Shown here one piece after another: positions 2,724-24,809 of a stretch of DNA of 24,809 nucleotides. This DNA comes from Nitrospira japonica. GTDB taxonomy: Bacteria > Nitrospirota > Thermodesulfovibrionia > Thermodesulfovibrionales > SM23-35. The notes beneath the pieces are model-generated. The model saw nothing but the letters and a program-made list of their open reading frames with translations, made no database searches and was not told the DNA's origin. Within the stretch, counting starts at the first letter, position 1; each line of letters begins with the position of its first letter. The translations under genes were made by a program, and so were the position numbers. Where the stretch lies: positions 1-24,809 of the forward strand of contig DYFC01000011.1 in NCBI GenBank assembly GCA_020725385.1, read 5' to 3'.

Positions 2724-2726
2724 ACT

Positions 2727-4305: not shown

Positions 4306-4332
4306 TAAAAAAATATCCTAAAAAGACGATAA
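4306..4332 (+). promoter_or_regulatory. Probable sigma-28 promoter of motAB
   Basis: TAAA(4306-4309)-N15-GACGATAA(4325-4332); one mismatch to GCCGATAA; 23 nt upstream of the motA ATG. Confidence 0.7.
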
Positions 4333-4355
4333 AAGATTAAACAGGAAAATAACGA

Positions 4356-5210: not shown

Positions 5211-5250
5211 TGGTTCTTCTCCAATAAAGTTGCTGAATAAGTAAACAAAC

Positions 5251-5333
5251 TGTCATTCCCCGACTTGATCGGGGAATCCAGAAAATATAAAAAATTATAA
5301 AGAAACTGGATTCCCGCTTTTGCGGGAATGACA
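5251..5333. repeat. REP-like composite palindromic element (two ATTCCC..GGGAAT hairpins in inverted arrangement)
   Basis: Terminal IR TGTCATTCCC(5251-5260)/GGGAATGACA(5324-5333); inner IR GGGAATCCAG(5272-5281)/CTGGATTCCC(5306-5315); AT-rich linker between the units. Confidence 0.88.
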
Positions 5334-5419
5334 CAGGAAGTTTTTACAAGAGTGTCAAAAGAGAGTTTTAGAGCAACTAAATTGGAGAAGAACCAAAATA
5401 ATTGTTTTGAAGAGGTGTC

Positions 5420-6181: not shown

Positions 6182-6218
6182 ATTACAATTTTCACGTTGT
6201 TTTTATCATGGTTTAATT

Positions 6219-7019: not shown

Positions 7020-7040
7020 AAAAAGACCTCCTTCAAATAT

Positions 7041-9076: not shown

Positions 9077-9097
9077 AATTAAAATAATGTCCTGATT

Positions 9098-9406
9098 TTA
9101 TAAGCTACTAATATCGGATACTTTTTTTCTGAGTTCATCAATTTCCTGATTCAAATGCTCAATTTCGTTTAGAGCTTCATTTATTGTTCTGTCTTTTATT
9201 ATATATTTTTCGGGTTGTCCTTTTAATTCAATTATTCTTTTGCCTATGGTTTTCATTAATTCATCTTTTTGTTTTTCCATTTTATTTGATTGGTAAAGAA
9301 GTTTTATAACCATGAGTTCTATTTTAATTCTTTCTGCAAATATTGCAGAGAACCATTTTATTTTTTCAATACCTCTTTCAAAGTTAATTTTAACTTTTCT
9401 CCACAT
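9098..9406 (-). CDS. Hypothetical coiled-coil protein (102 aa)
   Basis: SD GAGGT; co-oriented 21 nt upstream of pilD; heptad-like C-terminus INEALNEIEHLNQEIDELRKKV. Confidence 0.7.
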   Translation of the reverse strand: MWRKVKINFERGIEKIKWFSAIFAERIKIELMVIKLLYQSNKMEKQKDELMKTIGKRIIELKGQPEKYIIKDRTINEALNEIEHLNQEIDELRKKVSDISSL

Positions 9407-9677
9407 AATAACCTCTAAGAGACATTTTACATTTTTATACTAAATGATGCAATTTCATAACAATTATAATCAGTATAAATCAGACTAAAGACCGAAGAAC
9501 ACAGATTCACAATGGAAAAAATGCAAGATGCCTGAGTCTTTTATAATCATTCGGATGAAAATGTGTTAAGTATTACGTTCCGGCTGAAACAAGAAATCTT
9601 AATGCTTTACCAAATCATGGTAAACTGTTTATATGTGATTGTTTTTTTATAGTATGATGGTTATTGTATAAATTAGA

Positions 9678-10835
9678 ATGGAAAAAAGCAGGATAATCAT
9701 AACGTGTGCAAAAGGAATTACTCCTTTTTTGAAAGAGGAAATCCTGAAACTGGGATTTCCTGTAATCATGGAAACTGTTGCAGGTGTAATGACAGCGGGC
9801 ACTATTGAGGATACCATGAAGCTTAACCTATGGCTAAGAACAGGGCATAGGGTACTATTTTTAATAAAAGAATTCACTTCAAAAGATCCCGGAGAACTAT
9901 ATAAAAATCTGATAGAAATTCCATGGGAAGATTACATACCCGAGGATGGATATTTTTGTGTAACATCAAATGTTGATAATCCATACATAAAAGACTCAAG
10001 GTATGCAAATGTTAAGTGTAAAGATGCAATTGTTGATAGGATACGTTTGAAGAAAGGAAGAAGACCTGACTCGGGTCCTGAAAGGAATTCGATTGTAGTT
10101 AACCTGTACTGGAAGGGTAAAGATTGTTCAATTTATTTTGATACATCAGGAGAAGCATTATCTAAAAGAAATTATAGAAAAATACCTTTTAAAGCTCCTA
10201 TGCAGGAAACTCTTGCATCTGCCGTTATTTTGGCAACTAAATGGGATGGCAAAAGTCATTTTGTAAATCCAATGTGTGGAAGCGGCACCCTTGCAATTGA
10301 GGCTGCACTTATTGGTCTTAATAAACCTCCTGGAATTCATAGGAATAATTATAGCTTTATGCACATGAAAGGATTTAATTCAAACTACTGGAATCAACTA
10401 AAAACAGATGCTAAAAAGAATGCTTTGAGAGAACTAAATTATAAGATCATAGCATCCGATATAAGTGAAGAAGCAATTTCTGCTGCAAAGAAAAATGCAG
10501 CTACTGCAGGTGTTGAACATCTTATTGAATTTTTAGTGTGTGATTATTCTGAGACAAAAATTCCTGAAGGTGAAGGTGTTGTAATAATCAATCCCGAATA
10601 CGGTGAAAGAATGGGAAAAATGAAAGAGCTTGAGGATGTTTATAAAGGTATAGGCGATTTTTTTAAGCAGAAATGTACAGGATATAAAGGCTATATTTTT
10701 ACAGGCAATCTCGGGCTTGCCAAAAAAATTGGTTTAAAGACTTTCTGCAGAATACCTTTTTATAATGGTGATATTGAATGCCGTCTTTTGGGATATGAAT
10801 TATATAAAGGAAGTAAAAAGGATCAAGTGGAATAA
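9678..10835 (+). CDS. THUMP-domain class I SAM-dependent RNA methyltransferase (RlmL/YpsC-like)
   Basis: NLWLRTGHRVL, KCKDAIVD, DTSGEALSKRNYR, APMQETLASA, NPMCGSGT, NPEYGER. Confidence 0.9.
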   Translation: MEKSRIIITCAKGITPFLKEEILKLGFPVIMETVAGVMTAGTIEDTMKLNLWLRTGHRVLFLIKEFTSKDPGELYKNLIEIPWEDYIPEDGYFCVTSNVDNPYIKDSRYANVKCKDAIVDRIRLKKGRRPDSGPERNSIVVNLYWKGKDCSIYFDTSGEALSKRNYRKIPFKAPMQETLASAVILATKWDGKSHFVNPMCGSGTLAIEAALIGLNKPPGIHRNNYSFMHMKGFNSNYWNQLKTDAKKNALRELNYKIIASDISEEAISAAKKNAATAGVEHLIEFLVCDYSETKIPEGEGVVIINPEYGERMGKMKELEDVYKGIGDFFKQKCTGYKGYIFTGNLGLAKKIGLKTFCRIPFYNGDIECRLLGYELYKGSKKDQVE

Positions 10836-10901
10836 TCAACCCGGATAGTGCAGACAATTTAGGTAAACTTTTTATAGTATCTGACTTATCGTAAATAATT
10901 C

Positions 10902-12995
10902 TTATGCAGTTTTGAATAATTCAATTTTGCCTTTCCAGAAGGTCTCAAGAGATTTTCTCAATGAAGGGTAATTTTGTATTTCAGGGTCGGTTTCAATAAG
11001 TTTGAAAGCCTCATGTCTTGCTGATTTTAAGAGTTGATAATCTCTAATTATGTTTGCAGATTTAAGATCAGGTAACCCTGACTGTCTTGTTCCAAAGAAT
11101 TCACCGGGTCCTCTTATATCCAGATCTTCTTCTGCAATCTTAAAACCATCAGAGCTTTTTTCCATTATTTTTAATCTTCTCAATGCTTCTTCACCAACCG
11201 GTTCATAAGCTAATAATACACAATATGACTGATGTAAACCTCTGCCAATTCTTCCTCTTAATTGATGCAATTGCGATAGTCCAAATCTTTCAGCATGTAT
11301 AATAATCATCACAGTTGCATTTGGAACATCAACTCCAACTTCTATAACAGTTGTACTTACCAGAATATTAATATCACCATTTTTAAAAGCTGACATTATT
11401 TCTTCTCTTTCCTGAGGTTTCATTCTTCCATGAATAAGGCCTATTTTCAAAGATGGAAATATTTTCTCAAGCGCTTCTTTCCCTATAGTCGCTGATCTAA
11501 GGTCTATTTTTTCTGATTCTTCGATTACCGGATATACAACATAGACCTGTCTTCCTTTTTTTGTTTCATTATAAATTAGATTGTAAACAGTTCTTTTTTC
11601 GGATTCCCTGAAAACAATTGTTTTTACAGGCATTCTGTTTGGAGGTAGCTCATCAATTATTGAATAATCAAGGTCTCCGTATAATGTAAGAGCCAGAGTT
11701 CTTGGTATAGGTGTTGCTGTCATTACAAGAACATCGGGATTATATGCTTTCTTCCTAAGAAGTGCTCTTTGCATAACACCGAAACGATGCTGTTCATCTA
11801 TCACCGCCAAACCAAGTTTTTTGAATTTAATTCCTTCCTGAATTAATGCATGGGTTCCAACAACAATATCAGCCTCTCCATTTGCAATTATATCCAAAGG
11901 CTTATCTTTAACCCCGGAAGTTAGAAGACAAACTTTAATTCCTAATACGTTGACCAATCTGCAAATGTTAAGATAATGCTGCTCTGCGAGTATTTCTGTC
12001 GGCGCCATTAATGCTGACTGATAACCGCACTCTTTAGCAGTAATCATTGCCATTAAAGCGATGATTGTCTTTCCACACCCAACATCACCCTGAATCAAAC
12101 GATTCATTGGATGAGGTTTTTTCATATCATTCAGTATTTCATTAAATACTCGTTTCTGGGCATTAGTAAGTTGAAATGGAAGTCTGTGTAAAAGATTTTT
12201 TAATAATCTGCCATCAGGATTGAATGAAATGCCTTTTTCAATAACTTTTCTTTTTTTCAGTATAGCAAGTCCGAGTTGAAGCATGAAAAGTTCATCAAAA
12301 GAGATTCGCCTGTGATATTCGCTTAGACCTTTATTTAGTGAATCAATATCAGTACCTGTTTCAGGGAAGTGGACATTAAAAATACATTCATTTAGTCTGC
12401 GAAGTCCGTTTCTCTTTAATATGTCTTCAGGTATAACATCCTCTATATCATTGAGATGATTTTCCAATATATTAAACATAATGGTTCTCATCTGACGGAC
12501 TCCAAGTCCTTTTGTAACACTGTATATCGGCACAATACGATTTAAATGAATATGGGTTTCTGTGTTATCGGAAAGTATTTCATATTCAGGATTATCCATT
12601 TCAAAACCTGTTCCATAATAAGAATTTCTCTTAACAATTCCACATAAGAGAACATGGTCTCCTTTTCTGAAAACTTTTTTCATGTATGGTTGATTAAACC
12701 ATTTTGCTTTGAGAATTGCTGTGCCATCATTTATCAATAACTCAAAAATATGGAATTTCTTCTTAGGGGTTTTTATTAATTCAGATGAGATGATTGTGCC
12801 GGAAACTGTTTCAAGGTTACCGTATTTAAGATCGCATATTTTTTTTATATTACTGCGGTCTTCATATCTGTAAGGTAAAAAGTAAAGGGCATCTTGAATA
12901 CTTTTTATGCCAATTCGGGCAAGCAGTTTAGCCCTTTCAGGACCTACTCCTTTTATATATTGAAGGGAAAAATCACGCAGGTTTTTCGCCATCAT
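10902..12995 (-). CDS. recG: ATP-dependent DNA helicase RecG
   Basis: KGVGP and PYRYED in the N-terminus, QGDVGCGKT, MAPTEILAEQH, DEQHRFG, MTATPIPRT, QLHQLRGRIGRG, TRG motif DLDIRGPGEFFGTRQSG. Start is 12995 or 12992. Confidence 0.97.
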   Translation of the reverse strand: MMAKNLRDFSLQYIKGVGPERAKLLARIGIKSIQDALYFLPYRYEDRSNIKKICDLKYGNLETVSGTIISSELIKTPKKKFHIFELLINDGTAILKAKWFNQPYMKKVFRKGDHVLLCGIVKRNSYYGTGFEMDNPEYEILSDNTETHIHLNRIVPIYSVTKGLGVRQMRTIMFNILENHLNDIEDVIPEDILKRNGLRRLNECIFNVHFPETGTDIDSLNKGLSEYHRRISFDELFMLQLGLAILKKRKVIEKGISFNPDGRLLKNLLHRLPFQLTNAQKRVFNEILNDMKKPHPMNRLIQGDVGCGKTIIALMAMITAKECGYQSALMAPTEILAEQHYLNICRLVNVLGIKVCLLTSGVKDKPLDIIANGEADIVVGTHALIQEGIKFKKLGLAVIDEQHRFGVMQRALLRKKAYNPDVLVMTATPIPRTLALTLYGDLDYSIIDELPPNRMPVKTIVFRESEKRTVYNLIYNETKKGRQVYVVYPVIEESEKIDLRSATIGKEALEKIFPSLKIGLIHGRMKPQEREEIMSAFKNGDINILVSTTVIEVGVDVPNATVMIIIHAERFGLSQLHQLRGRIGRGLHQSYCVLLAYEPVGEEALRRLKIMEKSSDGFKIAEEDLDIRGPGEFFGTRQSGLPDLKSANIIRDYQLLKSARHEAFKLIETDPEIQNYPSLRKSLETFWKGKIELFKTA

Positions 12996-14073
12996 TAGAA
13001 GGCGTTGTGAATGTTTTATCAGCTTCTTCTATTTTCATTTTTGAGTATTCGGTTTCGCTTAGAATATCAATGTCCCATCCTGTGAGTTTCATCGCGAGCC
13101 TGACATTCTGTCCTCTTTTACCAATAGCTATAGAGAGCTGCTGATCATTAACTATGACCATAGCAGTCTTTGACTCTTCATTGATACCAATTCTGTCAAC
13201 AGTTGCCGGACTCAATGCTCTTGCTATAAGCTGTCTTGGATCCTCTGTCCAGTGGATAATGTCGATTCTTTCCCCGCGGAGTTCACGAACAATTAGTTGG
13301 ACTCTTGTGCCTTTCATGCCGACACAAGCTCCAACAGGATCAATCGCAGGATTTTTTGAGAATACGGATATTTTTGTTCTCTCCCCGGGTTCCCTTACGA
13401 TATTCTTAATTATTACGGTACCATCATTTATTTCCGGAACTTCCATTTTGAATAAAGATGCAACAAACTGTGGGTTAGTTCTTGAAAGCATTATTACAGG
13501 ACCTTTTGAAGTAATTCGTACGTCCTCAATATATGCTTTAACTGTATCGCCTCTCTTCAGATTTTCATTTGGCAAAGTTTCTTTTATGGGTAGAATTGCA
13601 TCTGTTTTGCCAAGATTGAGAAAATATAATCCTTTTTCTTTTCTCATTACCATTCCTGATACGACCTGACCTATTTTATCTCTGAACTCATTATAAATAG
13701 CATCTCTTTCAGCTTCTTTTACTCTCTGAAATATTACCTGTTTAGCTGTTTGTGCTGCAATTCTGCTGAAATCATGTAAATCTAAAGGCACATTTGCAAT
13801 ATTTCCTTCTATAGCATCTGGTTTAATTTTTGATGCTTCGGCAACTGAAATTTCTTCATCTTTATTAGTAACCTGTGTAACAATTTTTTTGATTTCATAT
13901 GCAGAGATGACACAGGTTTTAGGGTCAATTTTTAAATCTATATTTGTCCTTCCACCAAATTTTTTCCGTACAGCAGAAAGCAAAGCAGATCGTAAGGTTT
14001 CAATTAAGACCTCACGTGGAATTCCTTTTTCTCTGCTTATCTGGTCTATTACATAACAAAGTTCTTTGGACAT
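12973..14073 (-). CDS. nusA: Transcription termination/antitermination factor NusA (short form, no AR repeats)
   Basis: FSRIAAQTAKQVI, S1 domain, KH motifs DPVGACVGMKGTRV and AIGKRGQNVRLA. Confidence 0.97.
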   Translation of the reverse strand: MSKELCYVIDQISREKGIPREVLIETLRSALLSAVRKKFGGRTNIDLKIDPKTCVISAYEIKKIVTQVTNKDEEISVAEASKIKPDAIEGNIANVPLDLHDFSRIAAQTAKQVIFQRVKEAERDAIYNEFRDKIGQVVSGMVMRKEKGLYFLNLGKTDAILPIKETLPNENLKRGDTVKAYIEDVRITSKGPVIMLSRTNPQFVASLFKMEVPEINDGTVIIKNIVREPGERTKISVFSKNPAIDPVGACVGMKGTRVQLIVRELRGERIDIIHWTEDPRQLIARALSPATVDRIGINEESKTAMVIVNDQQLSIAIGKRGQNVRLAMKLTGWDIDILSETEYSKMKIEEADKTFTTPSNDGEKPA

Positions 14074-14525
14074 CAGATTTCTATCTCCAGATTCGCTTTT
14101 TTTATTTTATCAAATGGAATTTTAATCTCTTTTTCTTTTGTTACTATAACTATTTTATCATCCTGAACTCTTAAGATTTTTCCTATAAAAAAAGTCTGAT
14201 TATTTATTTTTTCTGTTGTTATAATTCTTGCGAGTTTAGCTATGTTATTTTCGAAATCCTTTAACTTTTTTAAAGGTCTGTTAAGACCCGGTGATGATAC
14301 TTCAAGAGTGTACGGGCCTTCAAAAGGGTCTTCTATATCAAGTAAGGCACTCAGACTTCTGCTGAAGTGCTCGCAGTCATCGAGTGTAACACCTTCGGGT
14401 TTATCAATCATAACACGTAAAAGCAATTTTCCTTTTCCGAGAATCTCAATATCAAATATATCAACAGAGTGCTGCTCAGCAATCTGTCTGGCAAGTAAGA
14501 AAACTTTTTGTTTAATCTCTTCCAT
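14073..14525 (-). CDS. rimP: Ribosome maturation factor RimP
   Basis: [30 protein letters not shown]; stop overlaps the nusA start. Confidence 0.96.
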
Positions 14526-15272: not shown

Positions 15273-16055
15273 ATGTTAATAATAGGCGAAAAACTTAGCA
15301 TAATAGCTAAAAGAGTTAGAGAAGCAATGATGAAAAAAGACAAAGGCCCTATTCAAGACATTGCTATTTTTCAATGGAAATCCGGTGCCGGCATGATAGA
15401 TGCCAATATAGGACCCGCTGAAGACAATGGCGAAGAATTAATGGAATGGATGATAACAACGATTCAGGAAGTTGTAAAATTACCGGTTTGTCTTGATACC
15501 ACAAATTATAAAGCAATAGAAGCAGGTTTGAAAGTTCATAACAATGAATGGGGCAGGCCTTTAATTAATTCAACTTCAAATGACCCCGAAAGATTTCCGA
15601 TGCTCGAGCTTGCCGCAAAATATAACTCACAGATTATAGGTTTAACAGTTGGAAAAGGTGGACTTCCTGCAGATGCTGAAGAAAGAGCTGCAATAGCAGC
15701 AGAGATAATGGCAAGAGCTTCTGAATATGGTGTTCCACTTGAGGATTTATATCTTGACCCGCTTGTTCTCCAGATTTCTACATCACAGGATCATGCATTA
15801 AAGGTTATACAGGCTGTTAAGATGTTTCAGGAACTAAATGACCCACCCATGAAAACAGTTGTTGGTCTAAGTAATATCTCGAATGGATGTCCTAAAGAAT
15901 TAAGGCCTATTTTAAATAATCATTTTCTTTCACTTCTTGCTTATGAAGGGTTAACCGCAGCTATTGCAGATCCACATGAAATAGCACCCACCGTTAAGAC
16001 GATTGATGTAATTATGGGTAGAACACTATATGCCCATTCATATTTAGAGATGTAA
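15273..16055 (+). CDS. acsE: Methyltetrahydrofolate:corrinoid/iron-sulfur protein methyltransferase
   Basis: Pterin-binding TIM-barrel motifs MLIIGE, IDANIG, LDTTN, LINST, LDPL, VGLSNISNG; adjacent to the CFeSP genes. Confidence 0.93.
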   Translation: MLIIGEKLSIIAKRVREAMMKKDKGPIQDIAIFQWKSGAGMIDANIGPAEDNGEELMEWMITTIQEVVKLPVCLDTTNYKAIEAGLKVHNNEWGRPLINSTSNDPERFPMLELAAKYNSQIIGLTVGKGGLPADAEERAAIAAEIMARASEYGVPLEDLYLDPLVLQISTSQDHALKVIQAVKMFQELNDPPMKTVVGLSNISNGCPKELRPILNNHFLSLLAYEGLTAAIADPHEIAPTVKTIDVIMGRTLYAHSYLEM

Positions 16056-16104
16056 ATAAAAAAGTTTGCATTTCACAGACTTTCTAAACAGGAGGAAGAT
16101 TAAG

Positions 16105-17046
16105 ATGGCTTTTATCCCGCCTAAGGAAACCTATCCCGGAAGGGTGTATTCCGTCTCAATAGGAACCGGTCAAAAGGAGATTACAGTTGGTGGTGAAAAT
16201 GTTCTTTCTTTTCATTCTTTTGAGGGAACAGTTCCAAACCGTCCTTTAATTGCTCATGAAATACAGGATGTGCCTCCAACAGACTGGCCGGAAAGTGTAC
16301 AAAAACCTTATATTGATGTCTATGCGAATCCTGTATCATGGGCAAAGTATTGCCAGGATGTTTTAAATGCAAAAGCTATAGCTCTAAGACTCATAGGAAC
16401 ACATCCTGATAGAGAAAACCGCAGCGCTGAAGAAGCTGCAAGAACTGTAAAAGAGGTTGTTGATTCAATAGATATCCCTCTTATAATCTTAGGGAGTAAC
16501 CATACTGAAAAAGACTCATCTGTTTTAATCGCAGCAGCAGAAGCCTCTAAAGACAGAAATTGTATTATTGGCAAAGCACAGGAGGCAAATTATAAGACAA
16601 TTGCAGCGGCTGCTGTTGCAAATAACCATAAACTTATTGCAATGTCAGAACTAGATATAAATCTCTCAAAGCAATTAAATATCCTTATTACACAAATGGG
16701 ATTTGATAAGGAAAAAATAATAATTGACCCCATGTGTTCTGCATTGGGCTATGGTCTTGAATATACATATTCTGTTATGGAAAGAATCAGACTCGCAGGA
16801 CTTGCTCAAAATGACCCTACAATGCAACAGCCAATAATGGGTGATGTTGGTATGTATGTCTGGAAGGTAAAAGAAACTATTGCGGATGAAAAAGATGTTC
16901 CTTTATGGGGTAATACTGAGGAAAGAGGTATAACATGGGAAGCTGTTACTGCAATTAGTATGCTTATTGCCGGAGCTGAAATTTTAATAATGAGACATCC
17001 AAAAGCAATCGAAGCAATTGAAAAAATGATTGATGAGCTTATGTAA
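16105..17046 (+). CDS. acsD: Corrinoid iron-sulfur protein small subunit
   Basis: ATG at 16105 after SD AGGAGG (the track's TTG start at 16066 is less likely). VGGEN..FHSFEG, DINLSKQLN, DP..SALGYGLEYTYSVMERIRLA, LIMRHP. Confidence 0.95.
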   Translation: MAFIPPKETYPGRVYSVSIGTGQKEITVGGENVLSFHSFEGTVPNRPLIAHEIQDVPPTDWPESVQKPYIDVYANPVSWAKYCQDVLNAKAIALRLIGTHPDRENRSAEEAARTVKEVVDSIDIPLIILGSNHTEKDSSVLIAAAEASKDRNCIIGKAQEANYKTIAAAAVANNHKLIAMSELDINLSKQLNILITQMGFDKEKIIIDPMCSALGYGLEYTYSVMERIRLAGLAQNDPTMQQPIMGDVGMYVWKVKETIADEKDVPLWGNTEERGITWEAVTAISMLIAGAEILIMRHPKAIEAIEKMIDELM

Positions 17047-17112: not shown

Positions 17113-18465
17113 ATGGCATTAACCGGTGTTGAGATATTTAAACTTTTACCAAAAACCAATTGCAAAAAATGCGGCTTTCCAACCTGTCTTGCTTTTGCAA
17201 TGAAGCTTGCTCAAAGACAGGCTTCACTTGATTTATGTCCCGATGTATCTGAAGAAGCAAGGCAGAAACTCGGTGAAGCTTCAGCTCCTCCTGTAAGACC
17301 GATTACACTCGGTACAGGAGAAAGCGCAGTTAAGATGGGTGAAGAAACAGTGCTCTTCAGACATGATAAAAAATTTGTAAATCCATGCGTTTTTGCACTT
17401 GGAATAAAGGATACTTTATCTTCAGAGGAGATTGAAAAGAAAATAGATGAAGTGCGTAATTCAGTTATAGATAGAGTTGGACAAAAATTGAAAATAGATG
17501 CAATAGCATTGTTAAATGATTCAGGCAGTCCTGAAAAATTTGGAAATTTAGCTAAGATTCTTTCTGAGAAAGCTCCTGAGATTCCGGTGATATTATGTAC
17601 GACTAATTTAAGTGCAGCGGAAACATCAGCAAAACTTTATGCTGATAGGAAACCTGTTATATATGGAGCAAATTCAGAGAATTTCGAAGAAATGTCAAAA
17701 ATTGCAAAAAATTATAGGGCAACCCTCGGAATTGCAGCATCTTCTTCAGGCGGGCTTAATGAACTTTCAGAGCTTACAGAAAAAGTCAAAAAACTTGGAA
17801 TTGAAGATATGGTGATTGACTCGGGAGCAAGAAAAGCAAAAGAAATTCTTGAACATAATACTTTAATAAGAAGAGCTGCCATAAAGAAGAATTTTAAACC
17901 TCTGGGTTATCCGATCATTACTTTTGCACAGAGAGAAGATAATTTACTTGAAACACTTGTTGCCGCTTTAGGAATTACAAAATACTCTTCCATAATTGTA
18001 TTAAGTAGCATAGAAAGATGGAAAAACCTTGCATTATTTACTTTAAGACAGAATATTTATACTGACCCGCAGGTTCCTATGCAGGTTGAGCAGAAAATTT
18101 ACAAAATTGGTGAACCAACAGAGGAATCACCCCTTCTTATAACAACAAATTTCTCGCTTACATATTTTATAGTTTCCGGAGAAGTCGAAAATAGTAAAGT
18201 TGCAAGCTATCTTGCTGTTATGGATTGCGAAGGTTTATCAGTTTTAACAGCATGGGCAGCAGGAAAGTTTACAGCCTCAAAAATAGCCCAGTTTATTAAA
18301 GAAAGCGGTATAGAAGGTTCTATAAAGCACAGAGAATTGATTATACCCGGTTATGTTGCAATATTAAGCGGTTCCATAGAAGATAAACTCGAGGGATGGA
18401 AGGTAACAGTAGGTCCAAGAGAAGCAAATGGTATCCCTGCTTTTATGAAATCAAGAATGAAATAA
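17113..18465 (+). CDS. acsC: Corrinoid iron-sulfur protein large subunit
   Basis: LPKTNCKKCGFPTCLAFAMKLA...CP [4Fe-4S] motif, ETVLFRHDK, LRQNIYTDPQ, TTNFSLTYF, GLSVLTAWAAGKF. Confidence 0.97.
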   Translation: MALTGVEIFKLLPKTNCKKCGFPTCLAFAMKLAQRQASLDLCPDVSEEARQKLGEASAPPVRPITLGTGESAVKMGEETVLFRHDKKFVNPCVFALGIKDTLSSEEIEKKIDEVRNSVIDRVGQKLKIDAIALLNDSGSPEKFGNLAKILSEKAPEIPVILCTTNLSAAETSAKLYADRKPVIYGANSENFEEMSKIAKNYRATLGIAASSSGGLNELSELTEKVKKLGIEDMVIDSGARKAKEILEHNTLIRRAAIKKNFKPLGYPIITFAQREDNLLETLVAALGITKYSSIIVLSSIERWKNLALFTLRQNIYTDPQVPMQVEQKIYKIGEPTEESPLLITTNFSLTYFIVSGEVENSKVASYLAVMDCEGLSVLTAWAAGKFTASKIAQFIKESGIEGSIKHRELIIPGYVAILSGSIEDKLEGWKVTVGPREANGIPAFMKSRMK

Positions 18466-18490
18466 ATTTATTTAAAGGAGGATTTCATCA

Positions 18491-20689
18491 ATGTCTAAGA
18501 TAATAGCCTCGGCAGCAATAAGAGGCGCTAGCCGGCTTGTTAAACAGGCTGAGGAAATGCTTGAGAAGGCTATTACCGAAAAAGGCGCTGACTTTACATT
18601 TGAGTTCCCTGATACAGCTTATTATATGCCTTTAATATATGCTTTAACAGGCTTTGCTGTAAAAAATCTTGCTGATATGAAGGTAGCTTTAAGTATGGCA
18701 AAAGAGCAATTGCATTCAGAGCCAGAAGAAAAAATATGGAAGCCTTATCTTGGAGAAGCTCTCGATTCTGGTATGGCAAGTCTTTTTGCAGAAGAAATTA
18801 TTATGGCTCTGAGATACATTTATGGACTCGAACCAGCAACCGACCCTGAAACAGGATATGTTTATAATGGTTTTATAACCGATACTATCCAGAGGAATCT
18901 TGGTATTCAGCTTGTTGACGGAACAATGCCTGGATTTGCTGCTGTTATTGGAGCAGCTCCTGATGATGATACAGCAGTCTCAATAATCAGAGAGCTTCAG
19001 GAAAAAAATATCCTTATATTCCTCGCAGGACAGGTTAATGGAAACAGCGTTACAAAACAACTATTGAGAAAAGGTGTTGAACTTGGCTGGGATACAAGAA
19101 TTGTACCTGTAGGACCGGATACCGAACATACTATTTATCCACTTGATTGGTCAATAAGAGCATCATTAATTTTTGGAGGTAAAAAACCCGGGGATTTCAA
19201 AGGCCATTTAAAATATACAAAAGACAGGGTTTTTGCTTTTGCATTAGTTCTTGGTGAACTTGATGACATTAAATGGACAACAGGAGCAGGTGCTATAAAC
19301 ATGGGTTATCCTGCAATATGTGATACGGATGTGCCGGTAATTCATCCAACAGGTGTTTGCATATATGAAGAAGTTGATAAGGAGTTTGATCATTCAAAGA
19401 TTGTCCAGAAAGCTATTGAAGTAAGAGGATTAAAGATTACTATTGAGAAACCTCCTATACCGGTTGCATATGGTCCTGCATTTGAGGGTGAACGTATTCG
19501 TAAAGAGGATATGTTCATAGAGTTTGGAGGCTCACGTACTCCATCCTTTGAATGGGTACGCATGAAAGAAATGGATGAAATCGAGGACAATAAAGTTATA
19601 GTTGTTGGTGATAGCTGGAAAGAAAAATATGAAAAAGGCGGTAAGATGCCTCTTGGAATAGTTATTGATGTTGCTGGAAGAAAAATGCAGAAAGATTTTG
19701 AATCAGTTATAGAGAGGAAAATACACCATAATATAAATGAAGCGCAGGGTGTATGGCATATGGGTCAGCGAGATATAAACTGGATAAGAATAAGCAATAA
19801 TGCAAAGAAAGAAGGTTTTACTCTTGAACATCTTGGCATTATTAATTCAACAATGACCCATACAAGATTTAAATCAATTGTTGATAAAGTTCAGGTGACA
19901 ATATATACAGAAGAAGAAGATGTTCTAAAAATACAGGAAGAAGCAAGGCAATCTTATAAAGAAAGAGACCAGAGACTCGGAGGACTTATTGATGAAAATG
20001 TTGATACTTTCTATTCATGTCTTCTCTGTCAATCATTTGCTCCAAGTCATGTATGTGTCATAAGTCCGGAAAGACTTGGATTATGTGGAGCTTATAACTG
20101 GCTTGATTGTAAAGCAGCTTTTGAGATAGACCCCACTGGAGGAAACCAGCCTATTAAGAAAGGTGAATTAATTGATGCAAGATATGGAAGATATACAGGA
20201 ATTGATGAATACTTAAGAAAAGCTTCTGGTGGAGCAGTTGAAACATTAAATCTTTATACAATCATGGAGAATCCCATGACTTCATGCGGATGTTTTGAGT
20301 GCATTGTTGCTATTGTTCCTGAAGCAAATGGTGTTATGATTGTTCAGCGTGGTCATACAGGCATGACACCTGTTGGAATGAAATTTACAACACTTGCAGG
20401 CACTGTTGGAGGTGGAACACAAAATCCGGGTTTTATGGGAATCGGAAGAAATTTCATTATAAGTAGAAAATTTCTCGCAGGAGATGGCGGTATCAAACGT
20501 ATTGTATGGATGACAAAGAATCTGAAAGAGAGCTTAAGAGAAGCTTTTACAAAAAGAGCTCAGGAAGAAGGGGTACCGGATCTTCTTGATAAAATAGCTG
20601 ATGAGGATATTTGTGAAGATTCTGAAAAATTACTTGAGTTTCTATCAAGTGTTGGACATCCAGCACTTGAAATGGAATCGATACTATAA
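18491..20689 (+). CDS. acsB: Acetyl-CoA synthase (CODH/ACS alpha subunit, bacterial type with N-terminal domain)
   Basis: FPDTAYYMP; A-cluster ligands SCLLCQSFAPSHVC..PERLGLCGA and MTSCGCFEC all present. Confidence 0.97.
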   Translation: MSKIIASAAIRGASRLVKQAEEMLEKAITEKGADFTFEFPDTAYYMPLIYALTGFAVKNLADMKVALSMAKEQLHSEPEEKIWKPYLGEALDSGMASLFAEEIIMALRYIYGLEPATDPETGYVYNGFITDTIQRNLGIQLVDGTMPGFAAVIGAAPDDDTAVSIIRELQEKNILIFLAGQVNGNSVTKQLLRKGVELGWDTRIVPVGPDTEHTIYPLDWSIRASLIFGGKKPGDFKGHLKYTKDRVFAFALVLGELDDIKWTTGAGAINMGYPAICDTDVPVIHPTGVCIYEEVDKEFDHSKIVQKAIEVRGLKITIEKPPIPVAYGPAFEGERIRKEDMFIEFGGSRTPSFEWVRMKEMDEIEDNKVIVVGDSWKEKYEKGGKMPLGIVIDVAGRKMQKDFESVIERKIHHNINEAQGVWHMGQRDINWIRISNNAKKEGFTLEHLGIINSTMTHTRFKSIVDKVQVTIYTEEEDVLKIQEEARQSYKERDQRLGGLIDENVDTFYSCLLCQSFAPSHVCVISPERLGLCGAYNWLDCKAAFEIDPTGGNQPIKKGELIDARYGRYTGIDEYLRKASGGAVETLNLYTIMENPMTSCGCFECIVAIVPEANGVMIVQRGHTGMTPVGMKFTTLAGTVGGGTQNPGFMGIGRNFIISRKFLAGDGGIKRIVWMTKNLKESLREAFTKRAQEEGVPDLLDKIADEDICEDSEKLLEFLSSVGHPALEMESIL

Positions 20690-20782
20690 AGCGAACTGAG
20701 ATATGGATAACATACCATCCAGAAAATTTATTGATTATTCTTTTTTGCCATATCTTTGTATAAAAAGTTATTCGGAGGTTAT

Positions 20783-22768
20783 ATGGATAAGGTAATTAAG
20801 AGTGCTAATGAAGCTGCTGAGAAAATAATTGAGTGGAGCGAAGAGCATAAAATTGAAACATGTTTTGACAGAGCTCAAAGGATGAAACCATGTCCTATAG
20901 GAGCTTCTGGCGCATGTTGCAAGATATGCCATATGGGACCATGCAGGCTTGTTAGAGCTTCTTCTGAAGAGGAAACAACAGGAGTTTGTGGAGCTACAGT
21001 TTCAACTATTTCTGCAAGAAATCTTTTAAGAATGGCTGTTGCAGGCTCTGCTGCTCATTCAGATCATGCACGTGATATGGCTTTTACTCTTCTTGCTGCA
21101 GCTGAGGGAGAAGCAAAGGATTTTGCTGTAAAAGATGTAAGAAAGCTATACAGAGTTGCAGGAATTCTCAATATTGAATTCGAAGGAAGACCTGTAAATG
21201 ACGTAGCCAGAGATGTTGCATTAAAGTTAATTGAAGATTTTGGAAGACAAAAAGGTGAAATAAATTTCATAAAAAGAGCACCTAAAAAAACAATCGAAAG
21301 ATGGAAAAAATGGGGAATAATTCCAAGAGGAGTTGATAGAGAAATTGCAGAAGCTATGCATAGAACTCATATGGGTGTTGACCATGATCCTGACAATTTG
21401 CTTTTGAGCGCCCTGAAAGTATCATTGGCAGATGGCTGGGGTGGTTCTATGATATCAACTGATATTACTGATATTCTTTTCGGAACACCTGCACCTGTAA
21501 GATCTGAAGCAAGTTTTGGGATATTCAAGGAAGATGAAGTTAATCTTGTAGTTCACGGACATGAGCCTTCTCTGGCAGAGATGATTGTTGATGTTGTTAA
21601 TGAACCAGAAATGATTGAATACGCTAAATCAAAAGGAGCAAAAGGTATTAATCTCGGCGGAATGTGCTGTACGGCTAATGAAGTCTTAATGAGACATGGG
21701 ATACCAACAGCAGGTGGTTTTACCAATCAGGAACTTGCGATATTAACTGGTCTTGTAGATGCAATTACTGTTGATGTTCAGTGTATCATGCCTTCACTTG
21801 CAGAACTTTCTAAGAAGTTCCATACAAAATTAATTACAACTTCGTATAAAGCAAAAACGCCAGGTGCAATGCATATTCAATATGATGAACACAGGGCAAG
21901 AGAGATAGCCCGTGAAATAGTCAGGACGGCCATTGATAATTTTCAGAATAGAAAAACAGAAGGAAGCCATATTTCTGATAAATTCCCTGTAATTGCAGGG
22001 TTCTCTCATGAGTATATTGAGTACATGCAGGGAGGAAGATGGAGAGCATCATTCAGACCACTAAATGATGCGATAATTGCTGGTAGAATTAGAGGTGTGG
22101 TTGGTCTCGCTGGTTGTGATAATCCAAGATTTCCATCTCAAGGATTACACCGTTTTCTTGCAACCGAGCTTATAAAGAGTGATGTCCTCATAGTATCAAC
22201 AGGATGTGGTTCTGCTGCATGTGGAACCGCAGGATATTTAACACCTGAAATGGCATTGGAACACGCAGGCCCTGGATTAAGAGAAGTGTGTGAGGCGATT
22301 GGAATTCCACCAATATTGCATCTCGGAGCCTGTGTTGATAATTCAAGGATATTAACAATAGTTTCTGCAATGGCAGAAGAAGGAGGGCTTTCCGATGAAA
22401 TAGGTGGCATGCCTGCTGTTGGTATAGCTCCTGAGTGGATGTCCGAGAAAGCGATTGCAATTGGCTGTTATCTTGCAGCATCAGGTGTTCCTGTTATTTT
22501 TGGTGGAGATTCACCTGTAGAAGCAAGTCAGGAAGTAACACATATCATGACAGAAGTTTGGTTCGAAAGATTCAGAGGAGCAATGCATTTCGAGCCTGAC
22601 CCTGAGAAAATATTGAGCATGACACTCGATTATATTGACAGGGCACGAGAAGCTCTAAAACTTAGAAAATATGAGCCAGGAAAATTTGGGGCAGAAAGAG
22701 TATTAATGGATATGTCAACAAGAAGGGAGCTTGAAAAGGCTGCTAAACCACATTTGGGAATATATTAA
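20783..22768 (+). CDS. acsA: Anaerobic Ni-CO dehydrogenase catalytic subunit (AcsA/CooS)
   Basis: ATG at 20783 after SD GGAGGT. D/B-cluster PCPIGASGACCKICHMGPC..GVCG; C-cluster ligands HGHEP, GMCCT, DVQC, AGCDN, TGCG, GACVDNSR; catalytic AHSDH and EWMSEKA. Confidence 0.97.
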   Translation: MDKVIKSANEAAEKIIEWSEEHKIETCFDRAQRMKPCPIGASGACCKICHMGPCRLVRASSEEETTGVCGATVSTISARNLLRMAVAGSAAHSDHARDMAFTLLAAAEGEAKDFAVKDVRKLYRVAGILNIEFEGRPVNDVARDVALKLIEDFGRQKGEINFIKRAPKKTIERWKKWGIIPRGVDREIAEAMHRTHMGVDHDPDNLLLSALKVSLADGWGGSMISTDITDILFGTPAPVRSEASFGIFKEDEVNLVVHGHEPSLAEMIVDVVNEPEMIEYAKSKGAKGINLGGMCCTANEVLMRHGIPTAGGFTNQELAILTGLVDAITVDVQCIMPSLAELSKKFHTKLITTSYKAKTPGAMHIQYDEHRAREIAREIVRTAIDNFQNRKTEGSHISDKFPVIAGFSHEYIEYMQGGRWRASFRPLNDAIIAGRIRGVVGLAGCDNPRFPSQGLHRFLATELIKSDVLIVSTGCGSAACGTAGYLTPEMALEHAGPGLREVCEAIGIPPILHLGACVDNSRILTIVSAMAEEGGLSDEIGGMPAVGIAPEWMSEKAIAIGCYLAASGVPVIFGGDSPVEASQEVTHIMTEVWFERFRGAMHFEPDPEKILSMTLDYIDRAREALKLRKYEPGKFGAERVLMDMSTRRELEKAAKPHLGIY

Positions 22769-22810
22769 GTTTACACGGTTTACACAGTTTACTTGGTTAA
22801 CTTGGTTAAA
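22769..22810. repeat. Degenerate 9-bp tandem repeat, about 4.7 copies
   Basis: GTTTACACG GTTTACACA GTTTACTTG GTTAACTTG GTTAAA, beginning at the base after the acsA stop codon. Confidence 0.85.
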
Positions 22811-22846
22811 TAAATGATGCAAGAATAATCTTAATTTTATGGAGGC

Positions 22847-23335
22847 ATGATGAAAGTAGAAGAAATCGATGTAGATAATCAGGTTGGTGAAGTTAGTGAG
22901 ATTTTATCTCAAAATGAAAAGACAAAAGGGATACTTATACATGTGCTCCAGCAGATTCAGGAAGACATGGGGTATCTTCCCGATGAAGTGCTAAGGAGAT
23001 TAGCAAAAAAGCTTGATATACCTTTGAGCGAGATATATAGTGTTGCGAGTTTTTATAAAATGTTTCACTTTAAGCCAAGAGGTAAAAAGGTTGTGAGGGT
23101 ATGTCTCGGGACAGCCTGTTATGTAAGAGGCGCAAAAAAGGTTCTCAATATGCTTGAAAATGAATTTGGAGTAAAAAGCGGGGAGACAACTGAAGACCTT
23201 ACAATGACACTTGAAACAGTTGGTTGTGTAGGATGCTGTGGACTTGCGCCTGTTGCAACAATAAATGAGAATGTGGTTGGAGAAATAATAGGCACTAAAA
23301 AGCTCAATAAGTTAATTGATAATATACGGGAATAA
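22847..23335 (+). CDS. NuoE/HydC(BfuC)-like [2Fe-2S] subunit
   Basis: LIHVLQQIQEDMGYLP, YSVASFYKMF, RVCLGTACYVRG and VGCVGCCGLAP (Cx4C..Cx3C). The second ATG (22850) fits the GGAGG spacing better. Confidence 0.93.
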   Translation: MMKVEEIDVDNQVGEVSEILSQNEKTKGILIHVLQQIQEDMGYLPDEVLRRLAKKLDIPLSEIYSVASFYKMFHFKPRGKKVVRVCLGTACYVRGAKKVLNMLENEFGVKSGETTEDLTMTLETVGCVGCCGLAPVATINENVVGEIIGTKKLNKLIDNIRE

Positions 23336-23377
23336 TATATATTAATTTTTATTTGTATTCTTTAAGGAGATTTTTCT

Positions 23378-24809
23378 ATGGAAAGGTTAGGAAACATAGA
23401 GGCATTGAAAAATCTCAGAAATTTCCTTGCCACTAATGAATATAGAACTGACAGAAAAACTATAAAAGTATGCTGCGGTCTTCCGTGCAGCACTCTTGGT
23501 TCTCACGAAGTTGCGGATGCTCTTGAGAAAGAAGCCTTAAAATTATCTTCTGATATTCGTATTGTGAGGACAGGATGTCAGGGATTGTGTCAAAAAGGGC
23601 CTTTAATTAAGATTGAACCCGAAGGTTATTTTTATAAAAAAGTATCTTCTGATAAGACAAAAGATGTTATTTCCTCTGTCACATTTTCAAATATTCCTGT
23701 AAGAGAACTTTTATACAGGGATTCTTTTCTCGATGAACCTGTATTGTTACAGAAAGAAGTTCCTTTTTATAAGAAACAATTAAAGATAGCTTTGCGTAAT
23801 ACAGGAAACATTGACCCTTTCAGTCTTAATGATTACGTTGCTTCAGGCGGATACCGCGCGACCGAAAAAATGTTTTCCTCTATGTCACCCGATGCAGTTC
23901 TTGAAGAAGTTAAAAAAGCTAATTTAAGGGGTAGGGGAGGAGCTGGATTTCCTGCAGGTGTTAAATGGGCTCATTGTAAGAAAGCTCCCGGGAAAATTAA
24001 ATTGGTTATTGCTAATGGTGATGAAGGAGACCCCGGTGCTTTTATGGACCGTTCTGTTATGGAAGGAGATCCATTCAGCCTTCTTGAAGGAATGCTTATT
24101 TGTGCTTATGCGATAGGTGCAAAATATGGTTTCATCTATGTTCGCCATGAGTATCCATTGGCAATTAAAACTCTTAAAGAAGCGATTAGACAGGCTGAAG
24201 AGGCAGGATTACTCGGTAAAAATATTCTTGGAACAGGCTTTGATTTTTATATAAAAATCAAAGAAGGAGCAGGAGCTTTTGTCTGTGGTGAATCAACGTC
24301 ACTTGTTGCATCACTTGAAGGGAAAAGAGGGTTCCCGAGCCCAAGACCTCCGAGACTTTCTGAAAAAGGAGGCGGAGCATGGGGTTATCCTTCAAATCTA
24401 AATAATATTGAAACTTATGCCTGTGTTCCCCCAATTATAGAAAATGGAGCAGAATGGTTTCTTAGTATTGGAACAGAAAGTTCACCCGGCACAAAAGTTT
24501 TTTCTCTTGCAGGAAAAGTGAGGAATACAGGTCTTGTAGAAGTGCCAATGGGAATAACTTTAAGAGAAATTATATTCGATATAGGTGGAGGAATAATCGG
24601 GGATAAGAAATTCAAGGCAGTACAGACAGGGGGGCCATCAGGAGGATGTATTCCGGAGCAATATCTTGATCTTCCTGTTGATTTTGATTCACTCTCAAAG
24701 GTTGGTTCAATAATGGGCTCTGGCGGAATGGTTGTAATGGATGAAGACAATTGCATGGTTGATGTAGCAAAATTCTTTCTTTCATTCACGCAGGCAGAAT
24801 CATGCGGAA
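23378..24809 (+). CDS. NuoF/HydB(BfuB)-like FMN and NAD(P)H-binding subunit, 3'-truncated by the window (477 codons visible; not in the ORF track)
   Basis: Manual translation from ATG 23378 (SD AAGGAG), open to the edge. N-terminal thioredoxin-like [2Fe-2S] domain VCCGLPC..TGCQGLC, LRGRGGAGFP, NGDEGDPGAFMDR, GAGAFVCGESTSL, NNIET, TKVFSLAGKV, QTGGPSGGC, NCMVD, ESCG. Confidence 0.94.
   Translation, partial: MERLGNIEALKNLRNFLATNEYRTDRKTIKVCCGLPCSTLGSHEVADALEKEALKLSSDIRIVRTGCQGLCQKGPLIKIEPEGYFYKKVSSDKTKDVISSVTFSNIPVRELLYRDSFLDEPVLLQKEVPFYKKQLKIALRNTGNIDPFSLNDYVASGGYRATEKMFSSMSPDAVLEEVKKANLRGRGGAGFPAGVKWAHCKKAPGKIKLVIANGDEGDPGAFMDRSVMEGDPFSLLEGMLICAYAIGAKYGFIYVRHEYPLAIKTLKEAIRQAEEAGLLGKNILGTGFDFYIKIKEGAGAFVCGESTSLVASLEGKRGFPSPRPPRLSEKGGGAWGYPSNLNNIETYACVPPIIENGAEWFLSIGTESSPGTKVFSLAGKVRNTGLVEVPMGITLREIIFDIGGGIIGDKKFKAVQTGGPSGGCIPEQYLDLPVDFDSLSKVGSIMGSGGMVVMDEDNCMVDVAKFFLSFTQAESCG

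What the first reader, a model, noticed from the sequence alone, without database searches (positions are those of the whole stretch)
20783..24809. CODH/ACS apparently co-transcribed with an electron-bifurcating-type HydCB (Bfu) module
Seen: acsA is followed on the same strand, with no visible terminator, by a HydC-like and a HydB-like gene. The latter has an extra N-terminal four-Cys [2Fe-2S] domain, DEGDPGAFM (24020-24046), Phe in TKVF, GGPSG and the Cys of NCMVD. Known (from recall): these features distinguish bifurcating HydB/BfuB from complex I NuoF and from non-bifurcating NADH-only enzymes, and CO2-to-CO reduction needs low-potential ferredoxin. Inference: a dedicated flavin module couples CODH/ACS to pyridine nucleotide and ferredoxin pools, possibly as a physical complex. 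The third subunit lies outside the window and could instead be a hydrogenase or formate dehydrogenase.
Basis: partly seen in the sequence, partly recalled or inferred. Interest (0 to 1): 0.75.

Follow-up and report, generated by a model that had tools for sequence, protein, structure and literature searches.

The report
NADPH/ferredoxin electron module for CO dehydrogenase
In these sulfate-reducing Nitrospirota bacteria, the gene for the enzyme that interconverts CO2 and CO travels with a four-part flavin and iron-sulfur module that has no catalytic site of its own and likely wires the enzyme to NADPH and ferredoxin by electron bifurcation, a kind of link predicted before but not yet purified.

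Summary
Observation confirmed. acsA (Ni-CODH) is followed by bfuC and bfuB with all quoted motifs. The window is a whole contig. Contig C11 overlaps its end by 113 nt and carries a BfuB 3' half (B1-B4 ligands, CBS pair), a flavin-less 'miniB' subunit and a BfuA with five Fe-S sites but no Mo or H-cluster site. It is neither a hydrogenase nor a formate dehydrogenase. The C11 half probably belongs to a second tandem bfuB copy. The module follows CODH, not ACS: 57 of 57 miniB-positive Nitrospirota genomes have CooS; in one family it forms a separate operon with acsA; a genus lacking CODH lacks it; and acsA plus module moved together into a Brocadiia acs cluster. The pocket matches NADP-using T. 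kivui HydB (98 of 113 orthologs). Best reading: an NADP(H)/ferredoxin-linked, Type-3-like Codh-Bfu on the bifunctional CODH/ACS. Bifurcation, complex formation and direction are inferred, not shown. Codh-Bfu was predicted in 2022 (Firmicutes, CooF, Type 2), so this is a new variant. The scan noted this module before on other DNA and on C11.

The parts
15273..16055 (+). acsE, methyl-THF:corrinoid protein methyltransferase; first gene of the cluster
   Evidence: NF040758/NF005719 hits below their cut-offs, PF00809; first gene of the cluster in relatives
16066..17046 (+). acsD, corrinoid Fe-S protein small subunit
   Evidence: NF003376 431.7 bits, cut-off 280
17113..18465 (+). acsC, corrinoid Fe-S protein large subunit
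   Evidence: NF003195 601 bits, cut-off 306
18491..20689 (+). acsB, acetyl-CoA synthase
   Evidence: NF040764 1021 bits, cut-off 800
20783..22768 (+). acsA/cooS, Ni-CO dehydrogenase; the only CooS found in the genome; the gene the module travels with
   Evidence: TIGR01702 595 bits; single copy by tblastn; cluster-ligand motifs align with solved CODH 6t7j
22847..23335 (+). bfuC (HydC/NuoE-like) with the C1 [2Fe-2S] ligands Cys86, 91, 127, 131
   Evidence: PF01257 160 bits; Cys positions
23378..24809 (+). bfuB (HydB-like FMN subunit), first 477 codons; cut by the contig end
   Evidence: best solved matches are bifurcating BfuB chains (7t2r_B E 1e-172, 8a6t_B E 6e-166), far above NuoF (E about 1e-90)
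23468..23590 (+). N-terminal thioredoxin-like [2Fe-2S] (B5) ligands Cys32/33, 37, 67, 71
   Evidence: conserved in 110-111 of 113 orthologs, the rest having N-terminal gaps
24020..24046 (+). DEGDPGAFM: Ala221 and Met223 (bifurcating-type positions of Losey 2020); Phe222 (equals T. kivui Phe205)
24284..24358 (+). NADP-type pocket signature: CGEST (Ser306) and RPPR (Arg326, equals T. kivui HydB Arg340)
   Evidence: alignment to 8a6t_B versus four NAD-type chains; Arg340 contacts the nucleotides in the NADP+-bound structure; 98 of 113 orthologs
24491..24502 (+). TKVF, Phe375 (bifurcating-type Phe, Tyr in non-bifurcating enzymes)
   Evidence: 113 of 113
24629..24643 (+). GGPSG in the SLBB domain
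   Evidence: 113 of 113
24749..24763 (+). NCMVD, Cys459, first ligand of the B2/Zn site (A. mobile Cys438)
24697..24809 (+). 113 nt identical to the start of contig C11; probably a repeat shared by two tandem bfuB copies. C11 (L032) then carries a bfuB 3' half with CBS pair (2-1015), miniB (1054-1662), bfuA (1695-3722) and scpA

Best explanation
The genes bfuC, bfuB (one or two copies), miniB and bfuA encode a Bfu-family flavin/iron-sulfur module with no catalytic site of its own, which likely serves as the dedicated electron partner of the Ni-CO dehydrogenase AcsA, predicted to couple CO2/CO to NADP(H) and ferredoxin by electron bifurcation. Shown by sequence and genomes: operon layout, all BfuBC cofactor ligands, a BfuA with five Fe-S sites and a dead Mo-pterin fold, and inheritance of the module with acsA through rearrangement, loss and transfer. 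Inferred: (1) CODH feeds BfuA directly, with miniB (a flavin-less copy of the BfuB B1/B2/B3/B4 arm) probably acting as the Fe-S relay where predicted Firmicute Codh-Bfu has CooF; (2) for carbon fixation the module would merge NADPH and reduced ferredoxin into four mid-potential electrons for 2 CO2 -> 2 CO, pulled forward as ACS consumes the CO, halving the ferredoxin bill; run backwards in acetate or CO oxidation it would split CO electrons between NADP+ and ferredoxin; (3) the CBS pair would tune it to adenylate charge. Step odds: dedicated CODH partner about 0.85; bifurcating about 0.75; NADP-preferring about 0.7; stable physical complex about 0.55.
For: Synteny in 40 relatives: bfuC directly after acsA in 30, module inside the acs cluster in 1, NfnAB inserted between in 1, module just upstream of acsE in 1. 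Phylum sample of 151 genomes: miniB in 57, all 57 with CooS; 0 of 75 CooS-negative genomes and 0 of 14 acsB-positive/CooS-negative genomes have miniB. In family f19 miniB lies within about 5 kb of acsA in 27 of 29 genomes (2 split by contig ends) and next to acsB in 0 of 29; acsEDCB there is followed by Fdh-Bfu and fhs. Genus g30 keeps acsEDCB but has CooS in 0 of 21 and a NuoF-type domain in 1 of 21 genomes. In a Ca. Brocadiia genome (L111) acsA-bfuC-bfuB-miniB-bfuA sits in front of a foreign acsB: its AcsA nests among Thermodesulfovibrionia (100/99) and its BfuA too (Nitrospirota-only BfuA clade rejected, p-AU 5.5e-5), while its AcsB is rejected from that group (p-AU 3.0e-5). BfuB ligands and bifurcating-type positions are kept in 110-113 of 113 orthologs (criteria from PMC9304861 and PMC7311640). 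miniB keeps all 15 Cys/His ligands in 22 of 22 and folds like the BfuB C-terminal half (pLDDT 88; 9bp5_B and 8oh5_B rmsd 1.5 A). BfuA lacks the pterin-binding domain IV and the loop that holds Sec-His in the genome's true Fdh. Pocket matches NADP-using T. kivui HydB.
Against: Two genomes (G149, G209) keep the module behind acsB with acsA absent from the operon and a different CooS elsewhere. 19 of 76 CooS-positive genomes lack miniB at the threshold used, some through fragmentation but families f16 and f17 and G035 and G192 apparently truly, so CODH does not need it. Two relatives (G029, G037) have the module unlinked from acsA. A recent paralog sits before porCDAB, so the module is a general adaptor for low-potential enzymes. 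Genomes are kin, so counts overstate independence; the g30 loss is one event. A. mobile WOR BfuB has Ser at the same position as Ser306 yet was solved with NADH, so that position alone does not fix specificity. Recalled thermodynamics: NADPH plus ferredoxin averages about -435 mV against -520 mV for CO2/CO at standard state, so CO2 reduction works only if CO is held very low.
Confidence: 0.58

Rival explanations
1. Different wiring: CODH plugs in at the low-potential port (B3/B4 of BfuB or of miniB) as a captive ferredoxin, and the unit works as a CO:NADP+ oxidoreductase for acetate or CO oxidation, without strict bifurcation or with mid-potential electrons entering BfuA from another enzyme.
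For: miniB duplicates the ferredoxin-docking arm; no cooF or ferredoxin gene lies in the cluster; CO can reduce NADP+ downhill (recalled potentials); NfnAB, which handles NADPH, often lies next to the module or to acsA, including in 4 module-less genomes.
Against: BfuB keeps every bifurcating-type residue and its own B3/B4 in 113 of 113 orthologs, which a simple diaphorase does not need; BfuA keeps all five clusters, including the His-ligated one used as entry in Type 3 enzymes.
Confidence: 0.17
2. Co-regulated but not attached: the module is a free redox hub (for example an NADPH/NADH/ferredoxin transhydrogenase built from NADP- and NAD-type BfuB copies) that supplies reduced soluble ferredoxin to CODH.
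For: 6 of 18 tandem loci pair an NADP-type with an NAD-type bfuB; the module stays in G149 and G209 without its acsA; a paralog serves POR.
Against: Most loci have one bfuB or copies of one pocket type, so no second nucleotide site exists and a third substrate is still needed; a free hub would not be expected to move with acsA alone away from acsB, nor into Brocadiia with acsA.
Confidence: 0.14
3. The module is the missing NADH-input arm of the genome's 11-subunit complex I (a Nuo-Bfu), and its place beside acs is only co-regulation.
For: G000's nuo operon (C31:43362-53825) has no nuoEFG; BfuA folds like NuoG; Schut 2022 predicts Nuo-Bfu in Nitrospirae; PMC5736913 raises docking of a separately encoded module.
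Against: At least 15 module-bearing relatives have a nuo operon with its own NuoF within about 6 kb of nuoH; g30 genome G034 keeps nuoH but has no module; no fetched module locus lay beside nuo genes; published Nuo-Bfu genes sit inside the nuo cluster.
Confidence: 0.08
4. The genes belong to a self-contained formate dehydrogenase or [FeFe]-hydrogenase that happens to lie next to acs.
For: BfuA scores on Fdh-alpha and HydA N-terminal profiles; an Fdh-Bfu follows the module in L102, L115 and L063.
Against: No H-cluster domain in the genome; BfuA lacks domain IV and the Sec/Cys-His loop in all 18 module and POR-paralog sequences aligned; the genome has a separate Sec-Fdh-Bfu beside fhs.
Confidence: 0.02

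Closest known systems
Codh-Bfu / CodhABCSF (predicted only; Schut et al. 2022, PMC9304861; Feng et al. 2025, PMC12318220)
   Same: BfuABC genes clustered with a Ni-CODH gene; CO proposed as third substrate; never purified.
   Different: Published form: 4 sequences, Firmicutes only, Type 2 BfuA without A3/A5, CooF subunit, proposed CO oxidation or detoxification. Here: BfuA with A1-A5 and a dead Mo fold, no CooF, an extra miniB subunit, ACS-type CODH, mostly NADP-type pocket, frequent CBS pair and tandem bfuB, and a lineage-wide trait of Nitrospirota.
Acetomicrobium mobile NiFe-HydABCSL (7T2R/7T30), Type 3 Bfu
   Same: Closest solved BfuB (E 1e-172) and a full-length BfuA of the same layout with a cofactor-less Mo fold (E 2e-67; TM about 0.64).
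   Different: Third-substrate subunits are a NiFe hydrogenase; NAD-type pocket; no miniB or CBS.
Thermoanaerobacter kivui HydABC (8A6T), NADP-dependent
   Same: The only one of five aligned solved BfuB chains with the GEST + RPPR pocket; Arg340 and Phe205 stabilise the nucleotides.
   Different: Type 1 [FeFe]-hydrogenase with the H-cluster in HydA.
Por-Bfu (predicted; Schut 2022)
   Same: The genome's paralog of this module, with miniB fused to BfuB, precedes porCDAB.
   Different: Published Por-Bfu is clade 45 Type 2 in Chloroflexi and Proteobacteria; the paralog's BfuA here nests among family f1 CODH-linked sequences.
Complex I NuoEFG / Nuo-Bfu
   Same: NuoG-like fold of BfuA; homologous FMN subunit.
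   Different: NuoF lacks B2-B5; Nuo-Bfu genes lie inside the nuo cluster; here they travel with acsA.

Membership tests
Bfu family (BfuBC core) | BfuC with C1 [2Fe-2S] ligands | tested here: met
   Cys86, 91, 127, 131; PF01257
Bfu family (BfuBC core) | BfuB N-terminal B5 [2Fe-2S] domain | tested here: met
   Cys32/33, 37, 67, 71 in the window; 110-111 of 113 orthologs
Bfu family (BfuBC core) | B1, B2/Zn (Cys, His, Cys, Cys; Thr or Cys), B3 and B4 ligands in the BfuB C-terminal half | tested here: met
   All present on C11 and in 112-113 of 113 orthologs. Only Cys459 and Cys476 are in the window; the C11 half probably belongs to a second tandem copy, so for the window's own gene this rests on orthologs.
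Bfu family (BfuBC core) | Bifurcating-type residues of Losey 2020 (Ala/Glu, Met, Phe, GGPSG) | tested here: met
   113, 112, 113 and 113 of 113
Bfu family (BfuBC core) | Strictly coupled reduction of NAD(P)+ and ferredoxin | not testable with these tools
   needs enzyme assay
Type 3 Bfu | BfuA with A3 and A5 clusters, no catalytic site, third substrate on extra subunits | tested here: met
   A1-A5 ligands invariant in the alignment; no pterin domain IV, no H-cluster
Codh-Bfu as published (Type 2, clade 49) | CODH gene in one cluster with bfuABC | tested here: met
Codh-Bfu as published (Type 2, clade 49) | BfuA lacking A3 and A5; CooF subunit | tested here: not met
   A3 and A5 present; no cooF in the cluster; miniB instead
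Codh-Bfu as published (Type 2, clade 49) | Placement in BfuB clade 49 | not tested
   the paper's sequence table was not among the supplementary text held
Codh-Bfu as published (Type 2, clade 49) | Physical complex with CODH | not testable with these tools
   needs co-purification or a structure
Fdh-Bfu or FeFe-Bfu (Type 1) | Mo/W-pterin site with Sec/Cys-His, or H-cluster, in BfuA | tested here: not met
Nuo-Bfu | bfuABC inside the nuo gene cluster | tested here: not met
   nuo operon on C31 has no EFG; module lies with acs

The most novel reading that the evidence does not exclude
A whole bacterial lineage runs its Wood-Ljungdahl CODH/ACS as a hard-wired supercomplex in which CO2 is reduced to CO by confurcation of NADPH and ferredoxin rather than by free ferredoxin alone. 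A new flavin-less subunit (miniB, a duplicated bifurcation arm) is the plug for low-potential enzymes (CODH, and POR in a paralog), interchangeable NADP- and NAD-type flavin subunits set the cofactor, and CBS domains gate the enzyme by energy charge.
Probability: 0.25. Interest if true: 0.82.

Novelty: new variant of a known kind. Interest (0 to 1): 0.57.

Why it matters
Textbook CODH/ACS takes its electrons from free reduced ferredoxin (recalled), the scarcest currency in anaerobic autotrophs. If this module confurcates NADPH and ferredoxin into CODH, it halves that demand and changes the energy budgets drawn for Thermodesulfovibrionia and other Nitrospirota with this pathway. It would be a testable example of the Codh-Bfu class, which is so far only predicted, and a different build from the published one. 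miniB, a free-standing copy of the arm that carries low-potential electrons, could help dissect the unsettled Bfu mechanism. A CBS pair on a Bfu flavin subunit suggests allosteric control by energy charge.

Tried and rejected
Complex prediction of AcsA residues 1-270 (two copies, no alignment) with the miniB alignment gave no answer (score 0.00, mark 0.32); it counts neither for nor against binding. No RNA holder was listed for window 18400-24809, so no reads could be laid on the operon or the contig break. Promoter and terminator scans were at chance level. My first reading of one 777-residue BfuB-CBS gene across C3 and C11 was set aside. The idea that the module is general in anammox bacteria was rejected: 1 of 61 genomes of that class has miniB, and the two other hits at the threshold lie in BfuB-length frames. 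The metagenome scan with distant miniB sequences gave one true miniB locus (L176) among the 49 of 80 loci I annotated; the others were mostly ordinary BfuB C-termini. The 9-bp repeats between acsA and bfuC occur at 7 places in the genome and are not specific. A search for a paper on the NuoF Glu183 NADH/NADPH switch listed nothing relevant, so that residue's role is recalled. The BfuA model has low confidence in its Fe-S region (pLDDT below 50 over much of residues 96-215), so its fold search only shows a NuoG/HydA-type fold. Literature searches listed no description of this Nitrospirota module; most subscription papers are not in the library.


Full report
1. Observation. The window is the whole of contig C3 of genome G000. 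Titles of the nearest related records place the lineage in Nitrospirota, Thermodesulfovibrionales; the genome has dsrA. On the + strand lie acsE, acsD, acsC, acsB, acsA (the only CooS), bfuC and the first 477 codons of bfuB, with gaps of 10-93 nt. No terminator-like site lies in the gaps, but the scan is at chance level.

2. What lies beyond the window. The last 113 nt of C3 equal the first 113 nt of C11 and occur nowhere else in the assembly. C11 continues bfuB in frame through the B1 domain, a 2x[4Fe-4S] domain and a CBS pair, then has a 202-residue ORF, a 675-residue ORF and scpA. The join is probably not one gene. The window half resembles the first tandem bfuB copy of relatives (G002: 64/87/93% against 44/78/78% over three segments), while the C11 tail resembles the second copy (84% against 59%). 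In 3 of 7 tandem pairs examined the copies share 149-528 nt of identical DNA starting at codons 379-408, and sister genome G005 breaks at the same place with an 83-nt overlap. The shortest contig in the bin is 5,155 nt, so a 2.3 kb middle piece would be missing. The locus is most likely acsE-D-C-B-A-bfuC-bfuB1-bfuB2-miniB-bfuA; a single chimeric bfuB is not excluded.

3. Anatomy. BfuB matches bifurcating chains far better than NuoF. I aligned 113 full-length, de-duplicated module BfuBs (of 121 full-length BfuBs in fetched loci; 8 Fdh-linked ones and all broken ORFs were left out). B1, B3, B4 and the B2/Zn His and two Cys are present in 113 of 113, the first B2 Cys in 112, the B5 Cys in 110-111, and the Losey positions in 112-113 (criteria from passages of PMC7311640, and sections 5 and 6 of PMC9304861). 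The 202-residue miniB is the BfuB C-terminal half alone: 15 Cys/His ligands invariant in 22 of 22 sequences, model pLDDT 88, rmsd 1.5 A to Nfn-Bfu B chains, no FMN or B5 domain. It forms its own family, with distant members down to Ammonifex. BfuA keeps the A1-A5 ligands but has no pterin-binding domain IV, and the loop that reads CARYUH in the genome's real Fdh is replaced and shortened. The genome has no [FeFe] H-cluster domain. This is the Type 3 layout of A. mobile NiFe-HydA.

4. Cofactor pocket. Two positions covary perfectly: Ser/Ala with Arg in 98 of 113, Glu with Phe in 15 of 113. Of five solved chains aligned, only NADP-using T. kivui HydB has the Ser + Arg form, and passages of PMC10021017 state that this enzyme uses NADP+ and that Arg340 and Phe205 stabilise the nucleotides. 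The window's gene has both. Caveat: A. mobile WOR BfuB has the Ser but not the Arg and was solved with NADH; the role of the Glu is recalled from NuoF work. Six of 18 tandem loci pair one copy of each type, 8 have only NADP-type and 4 only NAD-type copies. At least 51 of 113 carry a fused CBS pair, whose closest solved relatives are CBS proteins such as MJ1225; adenylate binding is inferred.

5. Which enzyme is the partner. Among 40 relatives: bfuC follows acsA directly in 30; the module lies inside the acs cluster in 1 (G028), behind an inserted NfnAB in 1 (G025), just upstream of acsE in 1 (G033), unlinked in 2 (G029, G037), cannot be judged in 2 (G019 contig break, G007 not fetched) and was not found in 3 (G034, G035, G038). 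In 151 Nitrospirota genomes miniB was found in 57, acsB in 89 and CooS in 76; all 57 have CooS, and none of the 14 acsB-positive, CooS-negative genomes has miniB. In family f19 the cluster is split: bfuC-bfuB-miniB-bfuA-acsA forms its own unit (27 of 29 on one contig, 2 cut by contig ends), while acsEDCB lies elsewhere in 29 of 29, followed by Fdh-Bfu and fhs in the three read. Genus g30 keeps acsEDCB but has CooS in 0 of 21 and a NuoF-type domain in 1 of 21 genomes; this is one loss event. In a Ca. Brocadiia record (L111) acsA and the module stand before acsB; AcsA is 77% identical to the window's, AcsB 54%, AcsE 29%. AcsA and BfuA nest among Thermodesulfovibrionia, AcsB is rejected from that group (p-AU 3.0e-5), and a Nitrospirota-only BfuA clade is rejected (p-AU 5.5e-5; quick trees on 16 of 30 and 13 of 27 rows, midpoint-rooted, groups named after seeing the first trees). 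Desulfonatronospira and Desulfovibrionales records carry the module too, one of them with acsA in view (L102), and a distant metagenome contig has acsBC..DE-bfuC-B-miniB-A-acsA-fhs (L176). The module therefore follows the CODH subunit.

6. Results against. G149 and G209 keep the module after acsB without acsA and hold a different CooS elsewhere; 19 of 76 CooS-positive genomes lack miniB, some through fragmentation. A paralog with miniB fused to BfuB precedes porCDAB in G000 and in other family members. G000's complex I lacks NuoEFG, but at least 15 module-bearing relatives have a nuo operon with its own NuoF.

7. Mechanism. Shown: a complete BfuBC-type core and a catalytically empty BfuA inherited with AcsA. 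Inferred: AcsA is the third-substrate enzyme, miniB the relay. Recalled potentials (CO2/CO about -520 mV at standard state, NADPH about -370 mV, ferredoxin about -500 mV in vivo) give about -435 mV for NADPH plus ferredoxin against about -390 mV with NADH; by hand, CO2/CO reaches about -430 mV at a 1000-fold excess of CO2, which ACS trapping of CO could supply. An NADP-type pocket thus fits CO2 reduction better than an NAD-type one. The reverse direction would serve acetate or CO oxidation; sequence cannot tell the direction. NfnAB lies beside the module or acsA in many loci, including four genomes where acsA has no module next to it, which fits an NADPH link.

8. Known and new. Schut et al. 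2022 (PMC9304861; abstract, passages, section 5 parts 1-2, section 6 part 1, supplement passages) predict Codh-Bfu from 4 Firmicute sequences, Type 2. Passages of PMC12318220 add that it has CooF and has not been purified. Passages of PMC6344411 list Nuo-like COG1034/1894/1905 among proteins linked to WLP-type CODHs without a mechanism. A term search of PMC13056359 found no mention; passages of PMC8578170, PMC9586279 and PMC5736913 do not describe it. Ten searches listed no account of the miniB-containing module; the full BfuB table of Schut 2022 was not held and may include some of these sequences. Verdict: works like a Bfu enzyme and meets the sequence tests of the family; not a member of the published Type 2 Codh-Bfu; a new variant. 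Earlier notes of this scan reached a similar reading on other genomes and on C11; the evidence that the partner is CODH rather than ACS, and the caveat on the contig join, were worked out here.

Noticed in passing
G000:C13 (L033:1360-9934, - strand): Paralogous module (bfuC, 899-residue bfuB with extra ferredoxin domain and fused miniB, bfuA) directly before porC-D-A-B; its BfuA nests among family f1 CODH-linked sequences, suggesting a recent duplication reassigned to pyruvate synthase. In L067 the acs-bfu cluster is followed by ORFs of the same sizes.
   Followed up: partly
G000:C31:40804-53825: NfnAB-sized genes divergent from an 11-subunit nuo operon (A-D, H-N) without nuoEFG; the electron input of this complex I is open. 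An Rnf-like cluster lies at C31:134473-139724.
   Followed up: partly
L035:5485-12806 (G000:C27): Selenocysteine Fdh-Bfu beside fhs; its BfuB has Ala at the pocket position and a different following motif.
   Followed up: partly
L034:7233-11925 (G000:C23): Third NuoEFG-like set: BfuB without C-terminal ferredoxin domain (non-bifurcating layout) and an 866-residue Fdh-like subunit whose catalytic loop reads RLCSGP, lacking the usual His; next to a LutB-like gene.
   Followed up: no
window 22769-22810: Degenerate 9-bp tandem repeat (GTTTACnnn) right after the acsA stop; 7 such arrays in the genome.
   Followed up: yes
L036, L038, L102, L115, L132: A free-standing 135-residue CBS ORF follows bfuB-CBS, most similar to the tail of the second tandem copy; probably a remnant of a deleted bfuB copy.
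   Followed up: partly
L258, L259: In G149 and G209 a divergent CooS lies with a Mo-pterin oxidoreductase, POR-like genes and membrane-hydrogenase-like genes, an unexplained cluster.
   Followed up: no
L191, L218: Metagenome acs clusters interleaved with a different Bfu set (short 258-residue BfuA in L191, no miniB), so Bfu modules seem to have joined acs clusters more than once.
   Followed up: no
L172, L173: Genus g30 keeps acsEDCB without any CooS (0 of 21 genomes): an ACS with no CODH partner found.
   Followed up: partly
window 656-14525: Ordinary genes by inspection of translations: response regulators, HD-GYP and histidine kinases, motAB, panB, prepilin peptidase, RNA methyltransferase, recG, nusA, rimP.
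   Followed up: no
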